A stretch of 64,000 bases of DNA from Parcubacteria group bacterium GW2011_GWA2_42_14 (GTDB taxonomy: Bacteria > Patescibacteriota > Minisyncoccia > Sungbacterales > GWA2-42-14): NCBI GenBank assembly GCA_000998135.1, contig LCCV01000011.1, forward strand, positions 4,132 through 68,131, in the 5' to 3' direction. The position numbers and the translations under genes were made by a program. Below the pieces are notes generated by a model that saw nothing but the letters and a program-made list of their open reading frames with translations, was not told where the DNA came from and did not search any database. Positions 2,498-64,000 of this stretch are shown here, in pieces; position 1 is the stretch's first letter, and each line of letters starts with the position of its first letter.

Positions 2498-3175
2498 TTG
2501 GATTACGATTGTCGTATGCGGGAAAAACAAGAACATTTTTTTGCAAAAATGAATGGAGAAGAAGAAGCAGCCGGTCCGCTAAATGAAGTATCGGAGTTAA
2601 CAGGATTGCACGAGCGCATTTCTTTAATTATCCGCACCATAAGCGGCAAGTTGAATTTGGAGGTTACTACCGATGTTGATTTGCCTACGCTTTTGAGATA
2701 TGCCAAAGAGGGCAAGGACGCCAGAACCACGTGGTTTCGTCAGGTGATCCGCGACCCCAAAACCAGAAAGCTCATAAAAGAACGCGTTCATATACCGAAG
2801 CAAATTGTTGGAATTAATGAGAACGTCCCTAAAGGAAGGGCGGCTCATGAGGCCGGTCATGTGCTTATTACGAGGCATGCGGAATTTGTTCCTGATGAGG
2901 TATTGCAGCAATTGGGTTTTCACGCCGTGCTTCAGGCGGTTGAGGAGCGCCCGACTGACCAGGTTGTGCGGGAACGTTTTTCCGGAGCGGGGCTTTGGGT
3001 TGATGAGGCCCGCCGGGAGGGAAACCAAAGATATCGCGCCATGTCTGATGAAGAAAAAAAGCGTTTGGCTATATTCCCAAATTTATGCAGTTCGCGGATT
3101 TATGCGTTTACGCGCCCCATTATGAAGAACTGCCGCCATACGCCCCCGACGTATTGGCCGCTTATGAAAATGTGA
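2498..3175 (+). CDS. Putative Zn-metallopeptidase-like domain protein (HExxH), N-terminal part of a DUF2201-like peptidase-vWA protein
   Basis: 'AAHEAGHVLITRH' HExxH motif. Overlaps the next ORF (3085..4830) in another frame. Confidence 0.4.
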   Translation: MDYDCRMREKQEHFFAKMNGEEEAAGPLNEVSELTGLHERISLIIRTISGKLNLEVTTDVDLPTLLRYAKEGKDARTTWFRQVIRDPKTRKLIKERVHIPKQIVGINENVPKGRAAHEAGHVLITRHAEFVPDEVLQQLGFHAVLQAVEERPTDQVVRERFSGAGLWVDEARREGNQRYRAMSDEEKKRLAIFPNLCSSRIYAFTRPIMKNCRHTPPTYWPLMKM

Positions 3176-4830
3176 AGGAATACGTGGAAATGGCCGAAAA
3201 AACTCTTCCGGCTGAGGGTGCTAAGGAAAAAGACGTGGTCAGGAGCGCTAAAGAGCGGTATTCAATAACGTACGAGAAAATATGGCCGGAAATGGAAAAG
3301 CTGGTTAAAAAAGATTTGGAGCTTGAAGAGTTGAGGAAATTGCTTGAGCAGGCGTTGTCCGGCAGTGAAGGCGAAAAGGGTGATAAAAAAGAAGGCCGGG
3401 ACGCGCCTCAAGGCCAAAAAGAGGATGGAGAAACCCGGCCCGACCCGGCTAAATTGCGTGAACTTTTAAAACAACTGCCGGAAGAGTTAAAAAAGGAGCT
3501 TGAGAAAATGCGGCCTTCTCAAACCGGGGAAGAGCAGCCGGAAAAAGAAAAAACCCGGCCGGACGCGCGAAACGGGCAAGACGTGATAAATGAGGATAAA
3601 ACGGAAGAAGAAGAGGAAAACATGGAAGGAAAAGAATCCGGCGAATCGGCAAAAGGTAAAAAAGAAAAAACGGTAATTTCAGGGCAGGAAGGTGGGGAAA
3701 AACAGGAAGGAAATCCGCTTCCCCTGGACCAAATAAGCGATGAGCTGAAAAAAGAACTGCGGAAGGTTTTTGACGGTTTATCCGAAGAAGAAAAAGAATT
3801 TCTTCAGCATATGGCCCGAAAGACGCTGGAGTATATTGAGGACGAAATCGTCAGGGAATTTTCCGGAAAATTAGCGGAAGATGAGCCGGAAACGCATGTT
3901 GTATTTGAAGCGCGCCAAAAAAAAGAAGAAAAAATGAAAAAGCTGGAGGAGGCGGAAGAGCGGCTGAAACGGGAAAAGGTACTGGTTAAACACGAGCTTG
4001 AAGAAATTGAAAAAAAACAGGCAAAAATTTCCGAAAACAAGAATGGATATATGCGCGCTTATGAAGAAGTGCGGGTCCTTGATGACGCGCTTTACCGCAG
4101 GTTGGATGAGATATTTACGCCCAATATCAAGCGGAATATAAAGATGAAATCTGCCGGGCTAAAACCCAATTTGCTTAAGGTGTTTAAGTGGGAGGCGGGA
4201 ATAATGGCCGGCGCTAAAGCGCTTGACAGCAAGATTTTTGAATCATATTCCCGCCATGAGAAAAAAGATTACGTTTTTTTCATTTTAAACGATATGTCCA
4301 ACTCCATGGGGAATGGAGGAAAAATTGAGAATGATTTTAAGGCCAAAATTCTTTTATCGGAAGTTTTAAACCGGCTGGGAGTTAAATTTGCGGTTGCCGG
4401 TTTTAACGACGATTTTTTCCAGTTCAAAAATTCCGGAGAAGACCTTAACGATAAAATTCGGGAAAAAATGAACGGTATGAAGATGGTTGAAGGATATACC
4501 GATACCGGCAGGGCTCTGGTAACCGCGTCCCGGGATTTGGAAAAGGAATTTGCCAAAGAGAAATTTTTGTTGGTTCTTACCGATGGAATGCCCATGACGT
4601 TAGAAAAAGACGCGCCATCAGAAACGCACCGGGCAGTGGCGGATATCTTAAAGAAAACCAGCCAAAAATTAATCGGCATCGGGCTTGGGCCGAAAACCGA
4701 ATTTGTCAGGGAATATTTTCCCGCGTCAATAGTGGAGGAAGATGTCAGAAATCTTCCGGAAACATTGTCCGCTCTTCTTGAAGACATGATATTGAATCCG
4801 GAAAAATACGCTTATAAAAACGATAGATAG
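3085..4830 (+). CDS. vWA-domain protein with a long E/K-rich coiled-coil linker
   Basis: MIDAS-like 'FFILNDMSNSMG'. 'LVLTDGMP'. E/K-rich low complexity at ~3300-4050. Confidence 0.55.
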   Translation: MQFADLCVYAPHYEELPPYAPDVLAAYENVKEYVEMAEKTLPAEGAKEKDVVRSAKERYSITYEKIWPEMEKLVKKDLELEELRKLLEQALSGSEGEKGDKKEGRDAPQGQKEDGETRPDPAKLRELLKQLPEELKKELEKMRPSQTGEEQPEKEKTRPDARNGQDVINEDKTEEEEENMEGKESGESAKGKKEKTVISGQEGGEKQEGNPLPLDQISDELKKELRKVFDGLSEEEKEFLQHMARKTLEYIEDEIVREFSGKLAEDEPETHVVFEARQKKEEKMKKLEEAEERLKREKVLVKHELEEIEKKQAKISENKNGYMRAYEEVRVLDDALYRRLDEIFTPNIKRNIKMKSAGLKPNLLKVFKWEAGIMAGAKALDSKIFESYSRHEKKDYVFFILNDMSNSMGNGGKIENDFKAKILLSEVLNRLGVKFAVAGFNDDFFQFKNSGEDLNDKIREKMNGMKMVEGYTDTGRALVTASRDLEKEFAKEKFLLVLTDGMPMTLEKDAPSETHRAVADILKKTSQKLIGIGLGPKTEFVREYFPASIVEEDVRNLPETLSALLEDMILNPEKYAYKNDR

Positions 4831-29827: not shown

Positions 29828-29919
29828 GCGACTCCAATACGCGAATGATATTCGAATGACTCTAATACGTGATTATTTATTCGAGTCATTCGAGTGAATT
29901 AGAGTAGTATTAGGGTCGC
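29828..29919. repeat. Family B palindromic element
   Basis: GGCGACTCCAATACGCGAATG...GAGTCATTCGAGTGAATTAGAGTA..TATTAGGGTCGC. Confidence 0.7.
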
Positions 29920-31807: not shown

Positions 31808-31880
31808 TAATCGCGAATCAATCATGAATCTATTCGCGAATATTCGCGAATAAAAAATTAGAGATTGATTAGAAAAAGTG
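31808..31880. repeat. Family E-related element
   Basis: AATCGCGAATCAATCATGAATCTATTCGCGAATATTCGCGAAT...AGAGATTGATTAG. Confidence 0.55.
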
Positions 31881-33754: not shown

Positions 33755-33844
33755 GGCGACTCCAATATGCGAATGCCATTCGAATGACTCTAATAATACA
33801 AAATTTATTCGAGTCATTCGAGTGAATTAGAGTATTAGAGTCGC
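33755..33844. repeat. Family B palindromic element
   Basis: GGCGACTCCAATATGCGAATG...CGAGTCATTCGAGTGAATTAGAGTATTAGAGTCGC. Confidence 0.7.
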
Positions 33845-36558: not shown

Positions 36559-36648
36559 TCACAAATCAATCTCGAATTTTTTCGCGAATGCCTGTGGTGA
36601 GCTCGTCGAACCATTCGCGAAAAAAATTAGCGATTGTTTCGCGAATAG
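36558..36648. repeat. Family E element (AATCAATC..CGAAT...GCGAATGCCTGTGGTGAGCTCGTCGAACCATTCGCGAA...)
   Basis: The 38-bp core is identical at 42597-42645. Related copies at 30331-30394 and 31808-31880. Confidence 0.7.
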
Positions 36649-41812: not shown

Positions 41813-41902
41813 GCGACTCCAATATACAAATAGCACTCGAATGACTCGAATAAACGAAAATATCATTCGAGACATTCGAGTGAATTAGAGTATTAGAGTC
41901 GC
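41813..41902. repeat. Family B palindromic element
   Basis: GCGACTCCAATATACAAATAGCACTCGAATGACTCG...CATTCGAGTGAATTAGAGTATTAGAGTCGC. Confidence 0.7.
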
Positions 41903-42573: not shown

Positions 42574-42660
42574 TATCACTAATCAATCGCGAATATTCGC
42601 GAATGCCTGTGGTGAGCTCGTCGAACCATTCGCGAATAAAATTAGAGATTGATTAGAGAA
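42574..42660. repeat. Family E element
   Basis: Same 'GCGAATGCCTGTGGTGAGCTCGTCGAACCATTCGCGAA' core. Confidence 0.7.
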
Positions 42661-55364: not shown

Positions 55365-56369
55365 ATGGATAGTGAAAAAATTTATAAACCAAAATTAAAG
55401 GTTTTTAAAGAGCGGGCTGAACGTATACCGAAGTCAGAATATGACAGCATGGTAGGAGAACTTTTAGTTAAATTCGGAAACCAATTTAAAAGGATTGAGC
55501 CGACCGAACCCATGCAAGATAAGGATAGTTTTGGAGATATTGATGTAATTTTTATGCCCAAGGGGTCGGTTGATGAGGGATATGAGTCTTACTTTCGGGA
55601 AATTTTTGGAAAATCATTTCTTGGCTATAACAGAACCCCTCATTCACACGTTCATTCGTTATTGCTTTCGGTTTCTTCCCAAAAATCAGTTCAGGCAGAT
55701 TTTATTAGGGCAGAGGACCAGACCGATTTTGAAAGGAAATTGATGTATTACTCTAAAGGACATTTTTCATCCGCGGTGGGCATGATGGCTAAAAAGCTCC
55801 ATTTTAAATATAGCACTGAAGGATTTTTTAAGAGATTTAAGGATAAACGAGGAAATTGGCACGATATTTTTATTAGTGATAAACTTTCGGACGGCTTGAA
55901 AATTCTTGGTTTTGACCGTTATGAATTTGAAGATATTAAAACAACGCCGGATATAGTTGAATTCATATCTTCCTCTTCTCTTTTTGATTCCAGTTATTTT
56001 CAGTTTAAAGACCTTCCGCGCCGAGACCGGGAGTCCATAAAAAGAAATGCCGTTGAAGAGTATATCACGCAAAAACTTGCTATTAAGAATCAAACTAGGA
56101 TAATTGACGATGAAGATGAATTTTTCAGAAAGTTTTTTCCTGAAGAATTTGAAAAATTTAAAACGGAAGCGGAAAGAATAGAAAAAGAAACTTATAAAAC
56201 AGGAAATATCAACGGTGAGGTTGTTATGAAAGCCTTCGGCTTGAAGCCATGCCCTGAAGTCGGAAAGGTTTTAAAATTTATTAGCGATTTTTATCCGAAT
56301 CTTGAAGATTTGACAGATGATGTCATTAAGGCCGTTAAAAAGAATATTTTGGAAAAAGAAGCGTTTTAA
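55365..56369 (+). CDS. Hypothetical protein with a possible minimal nucleotidyltransferase motif
   Basis: 'DKDSFGDIDVIFMPKG' resembles the NTase hG[GS]...DhDh motif. Confidence 0.3.
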   Translation: MDSEKIYKPKLKVFKERAERIPKSEYDSMVGELLVKFGNQFKRIEPTEPMQDKDSFGDIDVIFMPKGSVDEGYESYFREIFGKSFLGYNRTPHSHVHSLLLSVSSQKSVQADFIRAEDQTDFERKLMYYSKGHFSSAVGMMAKKLHFKYSTEGFFKRFKDKRGNWHDIFISDKLSDGLKILGFDRYEFEDIKTTPDIVEFISSSSLFDSSYFQFKDLPRRDRESIKRNAVEEYITQKLAIKNQTRIIDDEDEFFRKFFPEEFEKFKTEAERIEKETYKTGNINGEVVMKAFGLKPCPEVGKVLKFISDFYPNLEDLTDDVIKAVKKNILEKEAF

Positions 56370-56385: not shown

Positions 56386-56430
56386 AAAAAATATTCTCAT
56401 ATTCTTAAGAATATGAGAATATTTTTTTCT
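56386..56430. terminator. Perfect palindromic (bidirectional) terminator
   Basis: AAAAAATATTCTCATATTCTTAAGAATATGAGAATATTTTTTT. Confidence 0.45.
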
Positions 56431-56459: not shown

Positions 56460-56651
56460 ATGATTATCGTATGCTGGATGGTCGCCGAGCACCTATTCCG
56501 TCAGATATTTGATTGTATATGGTTAAAATCTGGAATAATCAGCAGAAAATTATATCGTTGTATGTGGCAGAATAGGTGCTCGGAGGAAAGTCCGAACATT
56601 CGGTCCTAAACGCGCCTTAGGCGCGTCGGACAATGGTAGTGGGTAATTCCC

Positions 56652-56775
56652 ATCTTTCTTGTCGCAGACAAGAGCGCGGAGTTACGCGGATAGCACGCGG
56701 AATAACGCAGAAAATTTCTGCGGCGTTCTGCGTCAGGTCTGCGACCGTCAGCGTTCTCGCCTGTGGCGAGAGAAG
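56652..56775. repeat. Family K ~125-bp element (CTTGTCGCAGACAAGAGCGCGGAnTTACGCGGA...ACGCAGAA...CTCGCCTGTGGCGAGAGAA) within rnpB
   Basis: Near-identical copy at 57062-57184. Related CGCGGA/CGCAGA-rich stretches in lepA at 62540-62590 and 63370-63430. Confidence 0.6.
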
Positions 56776-56814
56776 AGGTGCGAACAGAGACGCCGAGCAT
56801 TGAAAGATGCGAGG

Positions 56815-56920
56815 CGTCCCTCTCCACTTTTACTGATAACCTATTTTTTGTTATGTTGTCTTTTGTGAAAGATAACAGTTAAAAATTTCAAGCGGTTGTT
56901 AGTAAAAGTGGGGAGGGACG
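56815..56920. mobile_element. Family J element within rnpB (at the P12 position)
   Basis: CGTCCCTCTCCACTTTTACTGATAACC...GGTTGTTAGTAAAAGTGGGGAGGGACG. Confidence 0.6.
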
Positions 56921-57061
56921 AGTTCCAATGGCAACATCGGAAGTGAAACGGCTAAACCCTTACTTGGATGCAAGAGGACCTGTTTACGGCTAATTTATGT
57001 CAAAGAACAGGAAAAATAACTCGCTTGAGCCCGAGAGTAATTGAGGGCCTAGACAGATGAC

Positions 57062-57184
57062 CATCTCTCTTGTCGCAGACAAGAGCGCGGAATTACGCGG
57101 ACAGTACGCGGAATAACGCAGAATTTTCAGTGTTGTTCGACGTTCGTTCCGCGACTATCAGCGCTCTCGTCTGCGGCGAGAGAA
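57062..57184. repeat. Family K element within rnpB (immediately 5' of CR-IV)
   Basis: TCTCTTGTCGCAGACAAGAGCGCGGAATTACGCGGACAGTACGCGGAATAACGCAGAA...GTCTGCGGCGAGAGAAC. Confidence 0.6.
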
Positions 57185-57462
57185 CAGAATTCGGCTTATA
57201 GGCGTGCGATACGGAATCCGTCCTTAAGGGGCGGGTTTTTGTTATGTAATATTGGTGTGTGCATAAAATGTGATTGATTCGGGAAAACCGTTATATTATA
57301 CTTAAAGGGTATTTTTTAAGTACTTTTAACGAAATTATAAATATTCAGCGTTTTTCAACGTATCCATCAGTGTAAATTCAGCTTTTATGGCTATAAAAGC
57401 GGATAAAACGCGGATAAGTACGCCGATATTATGCTGAAAATTATATTTCGTAATTCAGTAAT

Positions 57463-61667: not shown

Positions 61668-62120
61668 AAAACTCTTTATTATAATAGTGTTAAGATTATG
61701 TCCGGGAAGGAATTTACGCAACAAGAGACAGGAGGATGAGACAATGAAAATTTACGTTAGGTGTGTTCTTTGGAATCGGTTTACCCTTACAGGGTATAGG
61801 TCTTATTGTCGGTTTAGTCGGTTTAGGCCTTGATTTTTTCTTTCAGTCAGGACTAAAACCAGATGCGTGGGTTTTATGGTCTTGGTGTTTATCCTCTTGT
61901 TTTATTGGAGCTCTTTTGTTGGGGCATACACTTTTAGGTTTTCAGACCAAGACGGCATATGAAAGAACCCGCGACCACATACGCGCTTTCGGGAGAGTTG
62001 ATGACAGGTTTTATAATTGTTACGACAATTATTGTGATCGCGCTGGAGTTCGCATGGCTAAGGCCGAATTTATGAGAGCGTCTCGTTAGATATTTTTTGG
62101 CCGCAAATCATTGAGAGATT

Positions 62121-62354
62121 TTGCGGCCCTTTTTATTTTTTGCAGAAACTGTTCCATTTGATACAGTATTATATATGGGCACTATTAGAAATTTCGTTAT
62201 AATCGCGCACATTGACCCCGTTAGAAGTCCGACACGGCCCCAAAGTTTTCAGCGCAACTCTAAGCGAATGCGGCTTATGCCTTACGCCTACTGCATTAAA
62301 AAGCCTCATTTTCGACTTCTAACGGGGTTGACCACGGAAATTAATGAATATTAG
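62121..62354 (+). pseudogene. Decayed duplicate of the lepA 5' end fused to a CCCCGTTAGAA element
   Basis: '[14 protein letters not shown]' then read-through of a family-H element, then a stop. Confidence 0.4.
62216..62327. mobile_element. Family H element inserted into the 5' end of lepA, flanked by a degenerate ~33-bp duplication of the lepA start
   Basis: CCCCGTTAGAAGTCC...CGACTTCTAACGGGG. Flanks are ATTAGAAATTTCGTTATAATCGCGCACATTGAC and ATTAGAAACTTTGTTATAATTGCCCACATAGATC. Confidence 0.65.
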
Positions 62355-64000
62355 AAACTTTGTTATAATTGCCCACATAGATCATGGCAAAAGTACTTTG
62401 GCCGACAGGTTTTTGGAATTGACGGGAACAATTGAGAAGCGGAAAATGCGCGAACAATTTTTGGATACTATGGAGTTGGAAAGAGAAAAAGGCATCACCA
62501 TAAAAATGCAGCCTGTGAGGATGCTGTGGCATCCTCACCGCGGAAAAAACGCGGACTACACGCAGAACAACGCAGAATCCACACTGCTTTACGAAGACCT
62601 GACATATAAAATTCGAGGGGTGTTGTTTCAGGTGAGAAAAAAAATCGGACTTGGACACAAAGAACAGGTATACCATAATGCTCTTGAAATAGAATTTAAA
62701 AATGCCGGACTCTTATATGAAAGCAAGAAAAATATTCCTATTTTGTACGAAGGACGAAATATTGGTACATACCAGCCGGATTTCGTAGTTGAAAATAAAG
62801 TGCTTATAGAATTAAAAGCATTGCCAGAAATTGGCAGGCCTCAAGTTGAACAGACGTGGTCATATCCTAAGGGCTGTGAATATAAAGTTGCCTTGTTGGT
62901 TAATTACGGTTCTACTGACTTGGAAATAAAGCGTATTGTTTATGATACGGCACGTAACGTTTCAGCGTTGTCTGCGTTAAGTCAGCATATTTCTGCGGGC
63001 GTGTCTGATCAAATTGAGAATGATGAATATATTCTCAATTTGATCGACACGCCAGGACATGTAGATTTCACTTACGAAGTTTCTCGCGCACTTGCCTGCG
63101 TTGAGGGAGCGATTTTGCTGGTTGACGCGACCCAGGGAGTGCAGGCGCAGACTATTGCCAATTTGCATTTGGCGAAACAGGCCGGACTCGCAATAATCCC
63201 GGCCATCAATAAAATTGACCTTGCCGGTGCCCGTATTAAAGAAACCGAGGATGAATTGGTTAATCTTTTGGGCGTTAAGCTTGAGGATATTTTTAAGGTT
63301 TCCGGCAAAACCGGAGAAGGTGTTGAAAAATTGTTGCAGGCCGTTATTGAATTAATTCCGCCGCCCCATGGCGCGGACAATCGCGGACAAAATGCAGACA
63401 ATGGCGGATATTTTCCGCGACTGTCCGCGCTTGCCCCGTTAGATAGCGCTCGCGGCGCATCTAACGGGGTGAATCTGCGTGAGTCCGCGAATGCGCCGCG
63501 CGCATTAATTTTTGATTCCCATTTTGATAATTTCCGCGGTGTAATCGCGCATGTGCGGGTTTTTGACGGAGAGTTTAAAAAACAGGATAAAATTTTAATG
63601 GCGGTGGCCAAAAGCAAGGCCGACATAATGGAGTTGGGTTTTTTTATGCCCGAGCTTTTACCACAGGAAAAATTAAGTACGGGAGAGATAGGATATATTG
63701 CTACCGGAATCAAGGAGCCGGAAGGGGTTCGTATAGGGGACACGGTTATATTGGCGCGTGACGCGGAAAATAAAGTAGAAATATTTTTTGGGTACCGCCA
63801 GCCGAAGCCCATGGTTTTTGCGAGCGTATATCCGGAGGATGCCGATGATTATGAAAAATTGCGCGATTCTTTGAAAAAAATTAAATTAAACGACGCCTCT
63901 TTGTTTTTTGAGCCGGAAGCATCCGACGCTTTGGGTAGGGGTTTTCGCGCCGGATTCCTCGGTATGCTTCATATGGAAATAATAGGGGAGAGATTAAAAC
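62344..64000 (+). CDS. lepA: Elongation factor 4 (LepA), 5' partial to the window end, with two in-frame insertions
   Basis: '[20 protein letters not shown]'. '[19 protein letters not shown]'. Stop-free frame to 64000. GxxExxY domain insertion at ~62524-63025. Family-H-derived insertion at ~63370-63480. Confidence 0.85.

What the first reader, a model, noticed from the sequence alone, without database searches (positions are those of the whole stretch)
62121..64000. lepA (EF4) with a family-H element at its 5' end duplicating the start, a ~165-aa in-frame GxxExxY/PD-(D/E)xK-like domain inside the G domain, and a second in-frame repeat-derived insertion
Seen in sequence:
- The first 12 codons of lepA are duplicated in degenerate form: '[14 protein letters not shown]' at 62170 and '[22 protein letters not shown]' at 62344.
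- Between the two copies lies a 112-bp family-H element (62216-62327, CCCCGTTAGAA inverted ends). The element therefore inserted into the start of the gene.
- In the intact copy, between '[10 protein letters not shown]' and '[14 protein letters not shown]', where EF4 normally has about 10 residues, there is a stop-free in-frame segment of about 500 bp (62524-63025).
- That segment encodes '[72 protein letters not shown]...[20 protein letters not shown]'. It contains a literal G-x-x-E-x-x-Y (G-H-K-E-Q-V-Y) and the D...E-L-K pattern of the GxxExxY/PD-(D/E)xK nuclease family, which is normally encoded by stand-alone small genes.
- The insertion borders carry CGCGGA/CGCAGA-rich family-K-like sequence.
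- Further downstream, '[49 protein letters not shown]' (63367-63480) is a second in-frame insertion. It contains a family-H mini-palindrome CCCCGTTAGATAGCGCTCGCGGCGCATCTAACGGGG.

No intein signatures are present (no N-terminal Cys/Ser, no HN-C/S/T junction). A stop-free 167-codon stretch in AT-rich DNA is very unlikely to be an intron.

Inference: a nuclease-like domain has been domesticated, or is tolerated, as a G-domain insert in an essential translation GTPase.
Basis: partly seen in the sequence, partly recalled or inferred. Interest (0 to 1): 0.75.

Follow-up and report, generated by a model that had tools for sequence, protein, structure and literature searches.

The report
In-frame mobile nuclease element inside lepA
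The extra domain in this bacterium's lepA gene is one copy of a previously undescribed selfish DNA element that encodes its own nuclease, sits in frame inside many different housekeeping genes of Patescibacteria, and is apparently translated as part of the host protein rather than spliced out.

Summary
lepA (62344 to beyond the window) is intact; the full product is 791 aa. It carries a complete GxxExxY/PD-(D/E)xK domain in frame at the beta2-beta3 turn of the G domain, and a second repeat-derived in-frame insert.

The "domesticated LepA domain" reading is not supported. The same about 0.5-kb module occurs in frame in LepA, RecG, LeuRS, GatB, SecA, RtcB, AsnB, glycosyltransferases, transketolase and other proteins, and also stand-alone. 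All 62 distinct copies with enough flank keep the host frame open. The nuclease tree interleaves host genes. Nuclease divergence is uncoupled from LepA divergence. Close relatives lack the insert.

The module has a fixed anatomy: a nuclease core, 3-4 CGC[AG]GA hexamers at 10-11-nt spacing on the left, and the inverted array on the right. New here: in most LepA copies, and some others, each end carries a reverse-complement copy of the adjacent host codons. These perfect 8-24-bp junction hairpins track the host's synonymous codons.

Insert 2 is an ORF-less miniature of the same element. The best reading is an autonomous relative of the Rickettsia palindromic elements. The insertion chemistry is unresolved.

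The parts
62175..62215 (+). Relic 5' fragment of lepA (codons 1-14, [14 protein letters not shown]). It continues after the H element as (TTGA)CCACGGAAATTAA, reading DHGN*.
   Evidence: (D1, 76% over 46 nt). The identical arrangement is present in Sungbacteria MAG locus L165.
62216..62327 (.). Family-H miniature inverted-repeat element, 112 bp, with 15-nt perfect terminal inverted repeats and a TTGA target duplication.
   Evidence: (I9)
62344..64000 (+). lepA (EF4) ORF. It runs off the window end. The full product is 791 aa (P0092).
62515..62538 (+). Left junction hairpin. The host codons V-R-M-(L) GTGAGGATGC, a TGTG loop, and their reverse complement GCATCCTCAC, which forms the first bases of the insert (H-P-H).
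   Evidence: The arms co-vary with host synonymous codons across loci.
62539..62576 (+). Left array of 4 x CGC[AG]GA at 62539, 62550, 62561 and 62571 (spacing 11, 11, 10 nt), translated as [13 protein letters not shown].
62587..62946 (+). GxxExxY / PD-(D/E)xK nuclease core, 120 codons (L82-D201), with no start or stop codon of its own.
62961..62997 (+). Right array of 4 inverted hexamers (TCAGCG, TCTGCG, TCAGCA, TCTGCG) at 9-11-nt spacing. As a single strand it pairs with the left array.
   Evidence: (I5, I24)
62998..63053 (+). Right junction hairpin. The insert end GGCGTGTC-T-GATCAAATTGAGAAT (62998-63021), a 9-nt loop GATGAATAT (D-E-Y), and the host codons ATTCTCAATTTGATCGACACGCC (I-L-N-L-I-D-T-P, 63031-63053).
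   Evidence: (I8)
63367..63498 (+). Insert 2, an ORF-less miniature of the same element. It has 3 x CGCGGA-type hexamers followed by 4 inverted ones, and lies in frame between IPPP and RALIFDS, the linker between G domain and domain II.
   Evidence: (I3). AlphaFold pLDDT is below 50.
63434..63469 (.). Family-H mini-palindrome (11-bp stem) nested inside the right array of insert 2.
   Evidence: It is absent from the homologous mini-element of L164.

Best explanation
Insert 1 is one copy of an autonomous selfish element of about 0.45-0.55 kb that lives inside genes by being translatable.

Anatomy (shown). From the outside in, the element has:
- a reverse-complement copy of the neighbouring host codons;
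- an array of 3-4 CGC[AG]GA hexamers spaced about one helical turn apart;
- a 120-codon PD-(D/E)xK (GxxExxY) nuclease ORF with no start or stop of its own;
- the inverted hexamer array;
- a reverse-complement copy of the downstream host codons.

Behaviour (shown). It lands, or survives, only in surface loops, here the beta2-beta3 turn of the LepA G domain. It always keeps the host frame.

Expression (inferred). The host gene supplies transcription and translation. The nuclease is made as a flexibly tethered extra domain of the host protein, and nothing is spliced out at the RNA or protein level.

Spread (shown and inferred). It is shown that the element moves between lineages and between genes, and that short recombination patches carry such inserts together with adjacent host codons. 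It is inferred that the nuclease drives this, by cutting empty alleles, by acting on the element's ends or hairpins, or both. The hexamer arrays would be its binding sites.

Junction mirror copies. It is shown that they are templated from the local target. It is inferred that they arise from fold-back (snap-back) synthesis or hairpin intermediates at the cut target ends, possibly kept perfect afterwards by quasipalindrome template switching.

Other parts. Insert 2 is a non-autonomous miniature (arrays only) of the same element, later invaded by a family-H mini-palindrome. The upstream H element sits in a dead 5' relic of lepA.

For: Same module, many hosts: of 83 loci, 50 are in LepA, 23 in RecG, 6 in LeuRS or another aaRS, 2 in GatB, 1 in SecA and 1 is stand-alone. 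Further hosts are RtcB, AsnB, GT4 glycosyltransferases, Wzy, a P-type ATPase and transketolase.

Translated, not spliced: 62 of 62 distinct copies give one continuous ORF from the host motif upstream to the host motif downstream. There is no Rfam intron and no intein domain.

Mobility:
- Host genes interleave in the nuclease tree, and a GatB copy is 82% identical to LepA copies.
- LepA exon identity and nuclease identity are uncorrelated (Spearman 0.06, 703 pairs).
- LepA proteins 83% and 78% identical to the window's lack the insert.
- A genome otherwise 100% identical over about 1240 nt differs in a roughly 200-nt patch around insert 2, including synonymous host changes.

Arrays: they are read in all three frames (46/96/85), with modal spacing 10-11 nt against a background of 1.3 motifs per kb. 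They also flank stand-alone genes in Patescibacteria and Omnitrophota.

Mirror arms: in LepA copies the medians are 11 bp (left) and 12 bp (right), with 13 mismatches in 917 positions; control windows have a median of 5 bp. They follow each host's own codons (for example GTGAGGATG/CATCCTCAC, GTCAGAATG/CATTCTGAC, GTTCGCATGAT/ATCATGCGAAC). They also occur in GatB, LeuRS and RecG copies and at one miniature.

Miniatures recur at the same LepA site in other lineages.
Against: No expression data exist. Translation through the insert is inferred from frame conservation only.

No biochemical activity is known for any GxxExxY protein, and the family's function is listed as unknown (PMC3424549).

Mirror arms are weak or absent in a divergent LepA subgroup and in the AsnB, RtcB and transketolase copies examined. 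They are therefore not a universal hallmark.

The fold-back model does not easily explain 2-nt loops. A guide model does not explain jumps to new genes.

Recurrent occupation of exactly the same LepA codon position implies either site-specific homing or spread of whole alleles by recombination. These two were not separated.

The pairwise-identity test ignores phylogenetic non-independence and saturation.
Confidence: 0.8

Rival explanations
1. Domesticated domain. The nuclease-like fold was recruited once as a functional accessory domain of LepA and is inherited vertically.
For: The insert is conserved, folded and under purifying selection. It is present in more than 115 of the best 120 LepA homologues of the query.
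Against: The same module with the same non-coding-type flanks is found in at least 10 unrelated proteins and stand-alone. Host genes interleave in its tree. Its divergence shows no correlation with LepA divergence. Close LepA relatives lack it. The flanks are constrained at the nucleotide level in all three frames.
Confidence: 0.04
2. RNA-level removal. The junction hairpins and the long array stem fold the transcript into a four-way junction that marks the insert for excision and religation, for example by the encoded EndA-like PD-(D/E)xK fold plus RtcB. On this view the element is a new kind of intron.
Against: All 62 of 62 copies keep the downstream host frame open and stop-free through the 3' flank, which an excised intron does not need. 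Mismatches in the arms show no excess of G-U-compatible types (4 of 13). No Rfam intron or ribozyme is found. Cutting at the hairpin bases would delete essential host codons. Stand-alone copies carry the same arrays.
Confidence: 0.06
3. Old, now immobile insertion. The element inserted long ago and is inherited vertically. Junction palindromes are kept perfect merely by quasipalindrome template-switch mutation, and the nuclease is a relic.
For: The LepA site is the same in all copies. Template-switch correction of quasipalindromes is an established mutational process (own knowledge). L002 and L104 show single, different decays from one perfect 15-nt palindrome.
Against: The nuclease is under strong purifying selection (dN/dS about 0.07). 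Insert and host divergence are uncoupled, with pairs at exon 0.56 / core 0.81 and exon 0.78 / core 0.53. There are multiple host genes with near-identical cores. Presence/absence and patch polymorphism occur between near-identical genomes.
Confidence: 0.08
4. Protein-level removal, either intein-like splicing or proteolytic excision of the insert.
For: The niche is intein-like: conserved sites of housekeeping proteins, with a nuclease inside.
Against: There is no Hint/intein domain. The N-junction residue is His, and the residue after the insert is Asp or Glu, not Cys, Ser or Thr. Flank lengths and sequences vary widely. The insert contains only the 120-aa nuclease fold plus low-complexity linkers.
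Confidence: 0.02

Closest known systems
Rickettsia palindromic elements (RPEs; Ogata et al. 2000, own knowledge; mentioned in PMC1779305)
   Same: Both are palindromic repeat elements inserted in frame in protein-coding genes and in RNA genes. They are translated with the host and located in surface loops compatible with function. Many copies occur per lineage. Insert 2 and the two array hairpins in the RNase P RNA gene of this window behave exactly like this.
   Different: RPEs have no coding capacity and no known mobilising enzyme. Here a full-length version encodes a PD-(D/E)xK nuclease within the host reading frame. The ends are hexamer arrays at helical spacing, and many copies carry inverted copies of the target flanks.
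Inteins carrying homing endonucleases
   Same: Both are nuclease-encoding selfish inserts in conserved sites of housekeeping proteins. Both are always in frame, are expressed through the host gene, and show a phylogeny decoupled from the host's with presence/absence polymorphism.
   Different: There is no Hint splicing domain and no catalytic junction residues. The insert apparently stays in the mature protein.
PD-(D/E)xK homing endonucleases of group I introns (I-Ssp6803I; Vsr-like I-Bth0305I, PDB 3r3p)
   Different: Those nucleases sit in self-splicing introns. Here no ribozyme is present and the downstream frame is always preserved.
Stand-alone GxxExxY (TIGR04256 / PF13366) genes
   Same: The protein family is the same (full-length HMM match). 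Stand-alone members in Patescibacteria and Omnitrophota carry the same CGC[AG]GA arrays.
   Different: Stand-alone members have their own start and stop codons and lie between genes. No function or mobility has been published for the family in the searched library.
Palindromic (P) nucleotides and hAT/Transib excision footprints; snap-back templated insertions of polymerase-theta end joining (own knowledge)
   Same: Both show inverted duplication of the DNA immediately flanking a break, templated from the local sequence.
   Different: Those are short repair scars of 1-4 nt, occasionally longer, left at empty sites. Here 8-24-nt mirrors flank a resident element on both sides, and no DDE transposase is encoded by the element itself.

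Membership tests
GxxExxY / PDDEXK_3 (TIGR04256, PF13366) | Full-length match to the family profile above the curated cut-off | tested here: met
   TIGR04256 positions 1-116 of 116, 108.9 bits against a cut-off of 35. PF13366 gives 103.4 bits against 22.
GxxExxY / PDDEXK_3 (TIGR04256, PF13366) | PD-(D/E)xK catalytic residues (E of GxxExxY, D of PDF, E-x-K) and a restriction-endonuclease-like fold | tested here: met
GxxExxY / PDDEXK_3 (TIGR04256, PF13366) | Small stand-alone protein of about 120-140 aa | tested here: not met
   The domain is embedded at residues 82-201 of a 791-aa LepA, with no start or stop codon of its own.
Intein | Hint domain blocks, N-terminal Cys/Ser, and C-terminal His-Asn followed by Cys/Ser/Thr | tested here: not met
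   No Hint or intein Pfam hit. The junctions read M-L-W|H-P-H and I-E-N|D-E-Y. The flanks are variable low-complexity sequence.
Group I / group II intron | Ribozyme core detectable by covariance model | tested here: not met
   There are no intron families at the gathering threshold or at E up to 5 in 62000-64000.
Group I / group II intron | No constraint on the reading frame through the 3' part of the insert | tested here: not met
   62 of 62 distinct copies are stop-free and in frame into the downstream host segment.
RPE-like in-frame palindromic element | Inverted-repeat architecture; inserted in frame in ORFs and also in RNA genes; recurrent copies | tested here: met
   The array/inverted-array architecture is shown. 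Miniatures occur in LepA and in the RNase P RNA gene of the window.
RPE-like in-frame palindromic element | Non-coding (no enzyme encoded) | tested here: not met
   The full-length copies encode a conserved nuclease.
Homing-endonuclease element | Same conserved site occupied in many lineages, empty in close relatives; insert phylogeny decoupled from host | tested here: met
Homing-endonuclease element | The encoded nuclease cleaves the empty allele | not testable with these tools
   This requires biochemistry. No member of the family has a published activity in the searched library.
Classical IS / MITE | Terminal inverted repeats plus direct target-site duplication | tested here: inconclusive
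   Inverted arrays are present. No direct duplication flanks the GxxExxY element; inverted copies of both flanks are seen instead. The separate family-H element does show TIRs plus a TTGA duplication.

The most novel reading that the evidence does not exclude
These elements may be a new class of mobile DNA with two parts to the claim.

First, a third lifestyle beside introns and inteins for a homing-type nuclease inside indispensable genes: it is simply translated as a tolerated surface domain.

Second, a new integration chemistry that leaves inverted duplications of both target flanks. The element's top strand reads 5'-rc(left flank)...rc(right flank)-3'. That is a 'padlock' for the empty site. 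It would fit integration or excision of a single-stranded or circular form by a junction/hairpin-resolving PD-(D/E)xK nuclease bound to the helically phased hexamer arrays.
Probability: 0.35. Interest if true: 0.95.

Novelty: new variant of a known kind. Interest (0 to 1): 0.85.

Why it matters
If correct, Patescibacteria (and probably other phyla) host a widespread, unrecognised family of nuclease-encoding elements that colonise essential genes without any splicing machinery.

Consequences:
- Many over-long housekeeping proteins and odd low-complexity stretches such as 'ADxTQxNAE...SASSxRxSA' in these genomes would be explained. So would mis-annotations, such as 780-aa LepA proteins named 'GxxExxY protein'.
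- The uncharacterised GxxExxY family (7,376 cluster representatives at E up to 1e-3) gains a concrete, testable role.
- The Rickettsia-type in-frame palindromic repeats gain a plausible model of an autonomous partner.
- The target-templated junction palindromes point to an insertion or repair mechanism not described for bacterial mobile elements.
- Surface-loop sites that tolerate a 170-aa insertion in LepA, RecG, LeuRS, GatB, SecA and RtcB are useful for protein engineering.

Tried and rejected
- Genome-collection scan with the LepA-plus-insert alignment. The patterns chosen were generic LepA motifs, so only insert-free lepA loci came back.
- Rfam at gathering and permissive thresholds. Only chance miRNA-like hits on the junction hairpin.
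- PDB sequence search. Only a weak T7 endonuclease I hit (E 0.31), too weak to use.
- Viral contigs. Only relatives at about 30% identity, so no phage vector.
- Literature, seven searches. Nothing on GxxExxY as an in-frame or mobile element. Absence from this library is not proof of absence.
- Mirror arms at insert 2 of the window. Only imperfect symmetry around CCATGG (inspection output).
- Mirror arms in the AsnB, RtcB and transketolase copies. None of 7 bp or more.
- Pure 'guide' model for the arms (selected complementarity, as in group II intron EBS/IBS pairing). Rejected as the sole origin, because 12-13-bp matches on both sides of a new host gene (LeuRS L123) cannot pre-exist by chance.
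- Translational bypassing. Rejected on length (492 nt) and on the conserved open frame.
Full report
**Observation**

The region was read and translated. lepA starts at 62344 and is open to the window end. A database protein 100% identical to the window part (P0092) is 791 aa and ends in a normal LepA C-terminal domain. The gene is therefore intact. The nearest named relative, 98% identical over aligned columns, is EF4 of Candidatus Sungbacteria RIFCSPHIGHO2_02_FULL_41_12b.

Upstream, an ATG at 62175 opens a degenerate copy of the first 14 codons (46 nt, 76% identical). This copy is interrupted by a 112-bp family-H element (62216-62327) with 15-nt perfect inverted ends, five copies in the window, and a TTGA target duplication. 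With the element removed the copy reads ...AHIDHGN*. It is a dead 5' relic, not the live start. The whole arrangement is base-for-base identical in the Sungbacteria MAG (L165), so it is not an assembly artefact.

**Insert 1 is a complete nuclease domain**

Compared with insert-free LepA of other Patescibacteria ([18 protein letters not shown]), the window has 164 extra codons (H63-N226, 62530-63021). They lie at the tip of the beta2-beta3 hairpin, between the G2 (GITIK) and G3 (DTPGH) motifs.

**It is not a LepA speciality**

A search with the insert alone returned 13 LepA fragments with the same insert at the same site. A metagenome scan with an insert-only alignment gave 80 loci. With four others, these split as LepA 50, RecG 23, LeuRS or other aaRS 6, GatB 2, SecA 1 and stand-alone 1.

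An exhaustive HMMER scan found 7,376 family representatives. Nearly all of the closest about 35 are internal domains of longer proteins. These include RtcB, asparagine synthase, GT4 glycosyltransferases, Wzy-type ligases, a P-type ATPase and transketolase.

Every copy has the same flanks. On the N-terminal side they translate as 'R..TQ.NAE..[12 protein letters not shown]', on the C-terminal side as 'YDxAR..SASS.R.SA'.

**Anatomy at the DNA level**

The flanks are arrays of a hexamer.
- Left: a mean of 3.1 copies of CGC[AG]GA with modal spacing of 10-11 nt.
- Right: the inverted hexamer TC[CT]GCG at 9-11 nt.
- Background: 1.3 motifs per kb.

The left hexamer is read in all three codon phases (46/96/85). 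The constraint is therefore on the nucleic acid, not on the peptide. The hexamer has no stop in any phase in either orientation, which suits an element that must stay translatable. In the window the hexamers sit at 62539/50/61/71 and 62961/70/81/91.

Stand-alone GxxExxY genes carry the same arrays. Examples are L150 in Patescibacteria, with its own ATG and stop, and L167 in Omnitrophota. The array-nuclease-array unit is thus the element, and in-frame residence is one of its states.

**Junction mirrors, a new observation**

Both ends of the window's insert are reverse complements of the adjacent host codons.
- Left: GTGAGGATGC-tgtg-GCATCCTCAC (62515-62538).
- Right: GGCGTGTC-T-GATCAAATTGAGAAT-gatgaatat-ATTCTCAATTTGATC-GACACGCC (62998-63053).

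The window holds 16 perfect hairpins of at least 10 bp, against 0-6 in shuffles. Four of them are in lepA.

Across 43 (left) and 40 (right) distinct LepA-hosted copies, the median stems are 11 and 12 bp, with 13 mismatches in 917 positions. Random 83-nt windows of the same loci give a median of 5 bp.

The arms follow each host's own synonymous codons: GTGCGGATG/CATCCGCAC, GTCAGAATG/CATTCTGAC, GTTCGCATGAT/ATCATGCGAAC, ATCAAGATGACGCCAGTGC/GCACTGGCGTCATCTTGAT, and so on. This is why the peptide after VRMxY reads H-[PSF]-[HDN].

Mirrors also occur in:
- GatB copies (L102, L108);
- LeuRS copies (L123, 12 and 13 bp);
- RecG copies (8-10 bp on one side);
- an ORF-less miniature (L112, 11 bp).

They are weak or absent in a divergent LepA subgroup and in the AsnB, RtcB and transketolase copies.

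Of the 13 mismatches, only 4 are G-T types, so there is no sign of RNA-level (G-U tolerant) selection. L002 and L104 each differ by one different base from the same perfect 15-nt palindrome. This suggests arms that are born perfect and then decay.

**Translated, not spliced**

All 62 distinct copies with at least 300 nt of clean flank form one ORF from the upstream host motif, through the element, to the downstream host motif. An intron would be in frame one time in three and would tolerate stops in its 3' part. No intron or ribozyme model matches. There is no intein domain and no intein junction residues.

**Mobile, not inherited with LepA**

- In a tree of nuclease cores the host genes interleave. 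GatB copies nest among LepA copies at 82% identity, LeuRS copies lie next to LepA copies, and some LepA copies fall among RecG copies.
- For 703 pairs of LepA-hosted copies, identity of the LepA exons and identity of the core are uncorrelated (Spearman 0.06). Pairs range from exon 0.56 / core 0.81 to exon 0.78 / core 0.53. Caveat: the pairs are not independent.
- The core is under strong purifying selection (median dN/dS 0.07 at dS about 1.9).
- LepA of relatives 83% and 78% identical, with identical flanking exons, lacks the nuclease. One of these carries an unrelated repeat at the same turn.
- The Sungbacteria MAG is 100% identical to the window for about 1240 nt. It then differs in a roughly 200-nt patch centred on insert 2, including synonymous host codons, and then is identical again. 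That is a recombination patch that exchanged the insert together with flanking exon sequence.

**Insert 2**

Residues about 342-385 (63367-63498) consist of three CGCGGA-type hexamers followed by four inverted ones. An 11-bp-stem family-H mini-palindrome (63434-63469) is nested among the latter.

Array-only inserts occupy the same IPPP|RALIFDS linker in other lineages: L084 'ADFTQKVAEQGQRNSASSLR', and also L138 and L109. Other LepA loops carry them too. Insert 2 is therefore a miniature, non-autonomous derivative of the same element. It is the direct analogue of Rickettsia palindromic elements.

**Mechanism**

What is shown:
- the anatomy of the element;
- obligate frame preservation;
- multi-host distribution;
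- decoupled phylogeny;
- recombination patches;
- target-templated mirrors.

What is inferred:
- The host provides expression, and the nuclease is displayed as a tethered domain.
- The helically phased hexamers are its binding sites.
- The nuclease promotes spread by cutting empty alleles or the element ends.

For the mirrors, a pre-existing 'guide' cannot explain 12-13-bp matches in newly invaded genes. They must be copied from the local target at insertion. Possible routes are fold-back (snap-back) synthesis, or hairpin-capped target ends opened off-centre. They may then be kept perfect by quasipalindrome template switching or by selection for homing.

One geometric point is worth noting. 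The element's top strand is 5'-rc(L)...rc(R)-3', a padlock for the empty site L|R. Crosswise joining at the centre of such a duplex would give exactly the observed product. This is speculative.

**Comparison and novelty**

The strategy matches that of RPEs: in-frame, translated, surface-loop, palindromic. The niche matches that of inteins. The differences are an encoded PD-(D/E)xK nuclease, no splicing, hexamer arrays and inverted target copies. Seven full-text searches found no description of this. PF13366 is listed as 'function unknown'. I file it as a new variant of a known kind (in-frame selfish palindromic insertions). There is a substantial chance that it deserves a class of its own.

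Noticed in passing
window 56480-57200: An RNase P RNA gene (GGAGGAAAGTCCGAAC at about 56583) that only reaches a sub-threshold RF00010 hit (25.4 bits, E 6e-6). It carries two ORF-less CGC[AG]GA array hairpins (56663-56743 and 57074-57175). The same miniature element is thus tolerated as helix extensions in a structured RNA gene.
   Followed up: partly
L164:1501-3360 (LepA 83% identical to the window's, no nuclease insert): The empty site reads VRMQYNLNLKPYILNLID. ATCTTAAACCTTAT is present twice in tandem in different frames. This is a direct duplication of the right target flank exactly where the element sits elsewhere, possibly a footprint.
   Followed up: no
L004 (Zambryskibacteria lepA, match 3001-3291): The site has only a 14-nt inverted copy of the right flank (ATCAATCAAATTCA...TGAATTTGATTGAT, peptide QSNSQQN), with no arrays and no nuclease. 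It is a solo mirror arm, possibly a remnant of a lost element.
   Followed up: no
L165:1250-2640 versus window 62100-63560: The two are 100% identical for about 1240 nt. A roughly 200-nt patch around insert 2 then differs, including synonymous host codons, and identity resumes afterwards. This is a recent recombination/co-conversion tract.
   Followed up: partly
L084 about 4762-4798 and L138 about 4714-4750 (LepA, just upstream of the IPPP miniature): A 9-bp and an 11-bp perfect hairpin have both arms inside host codons (E-E/A-L-L ... R-V-P-P). They co-vary between the two loci (GAGGAACTC/GAGTTCCTC versus GAGGCACTCTT/AAGAGTGCCTC).
   Followed up: no
window 63451-63460 / 63491-63500: The loop of the nested H mini-palindrome (CGCGGCGCAT) is the exact reverse complement of ATGCGCCGCG, 30 nt downstream at the end of insert 2.
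   Followed up: no
window 29852-29893, 33780-33821, 41834-41882; 31831-31852, 36577-36646, 42594-42638: Two further hairpin-repeat families occur: TCGAATGACTC...GAGTCATTCGA, and (T)ATTCGCGAA(TG)...CATTCGCGAA. They have 10-14-bp perfect stems and recur several times in the window.
   Followed up: no
window 56386-56427: A 20-bp perfect palindrome (AAAAAATATTCTCATATTCT-ta-AGAATATGAGAATATTTTTT) lies directly after the ORF ending at 56369. It is terminator-like.
   Followed up: no
P0170, L009, L072 (LepA of other Patescibacteria): The same beta2-beta3 turn of LepA holds unrelated repeat-derived inserts (for example 'CHPERSEGS...', 'SEIPNPKSQIPNKFQNSN...'). The turn is a general landing or tolerance hotspot.
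   Followed up: no
P0146, P0154: Full-length LepA proteins of 767-783 aa are named 'GxxExxY protein' in NCBI records. One is binned as 'Nanoarchaeota archaeon'. These are annotation and binning errors caused by the insert.
   Followed up: no
L168:1060-1800: A stand-alone GxxExxY gene is flanked on both sides, in direct orientation, by complete palindromic units GCACGCAGATT...AATCCGCGTGC. This is a different flank architecture sharing the CGCAGA/TCCGCG core.
   Followed up: no
P0216 / L171:162-1553: RtcB, the RNA ligase, is itself a host of the element in some Patescibacteria.
   Followed up: partly
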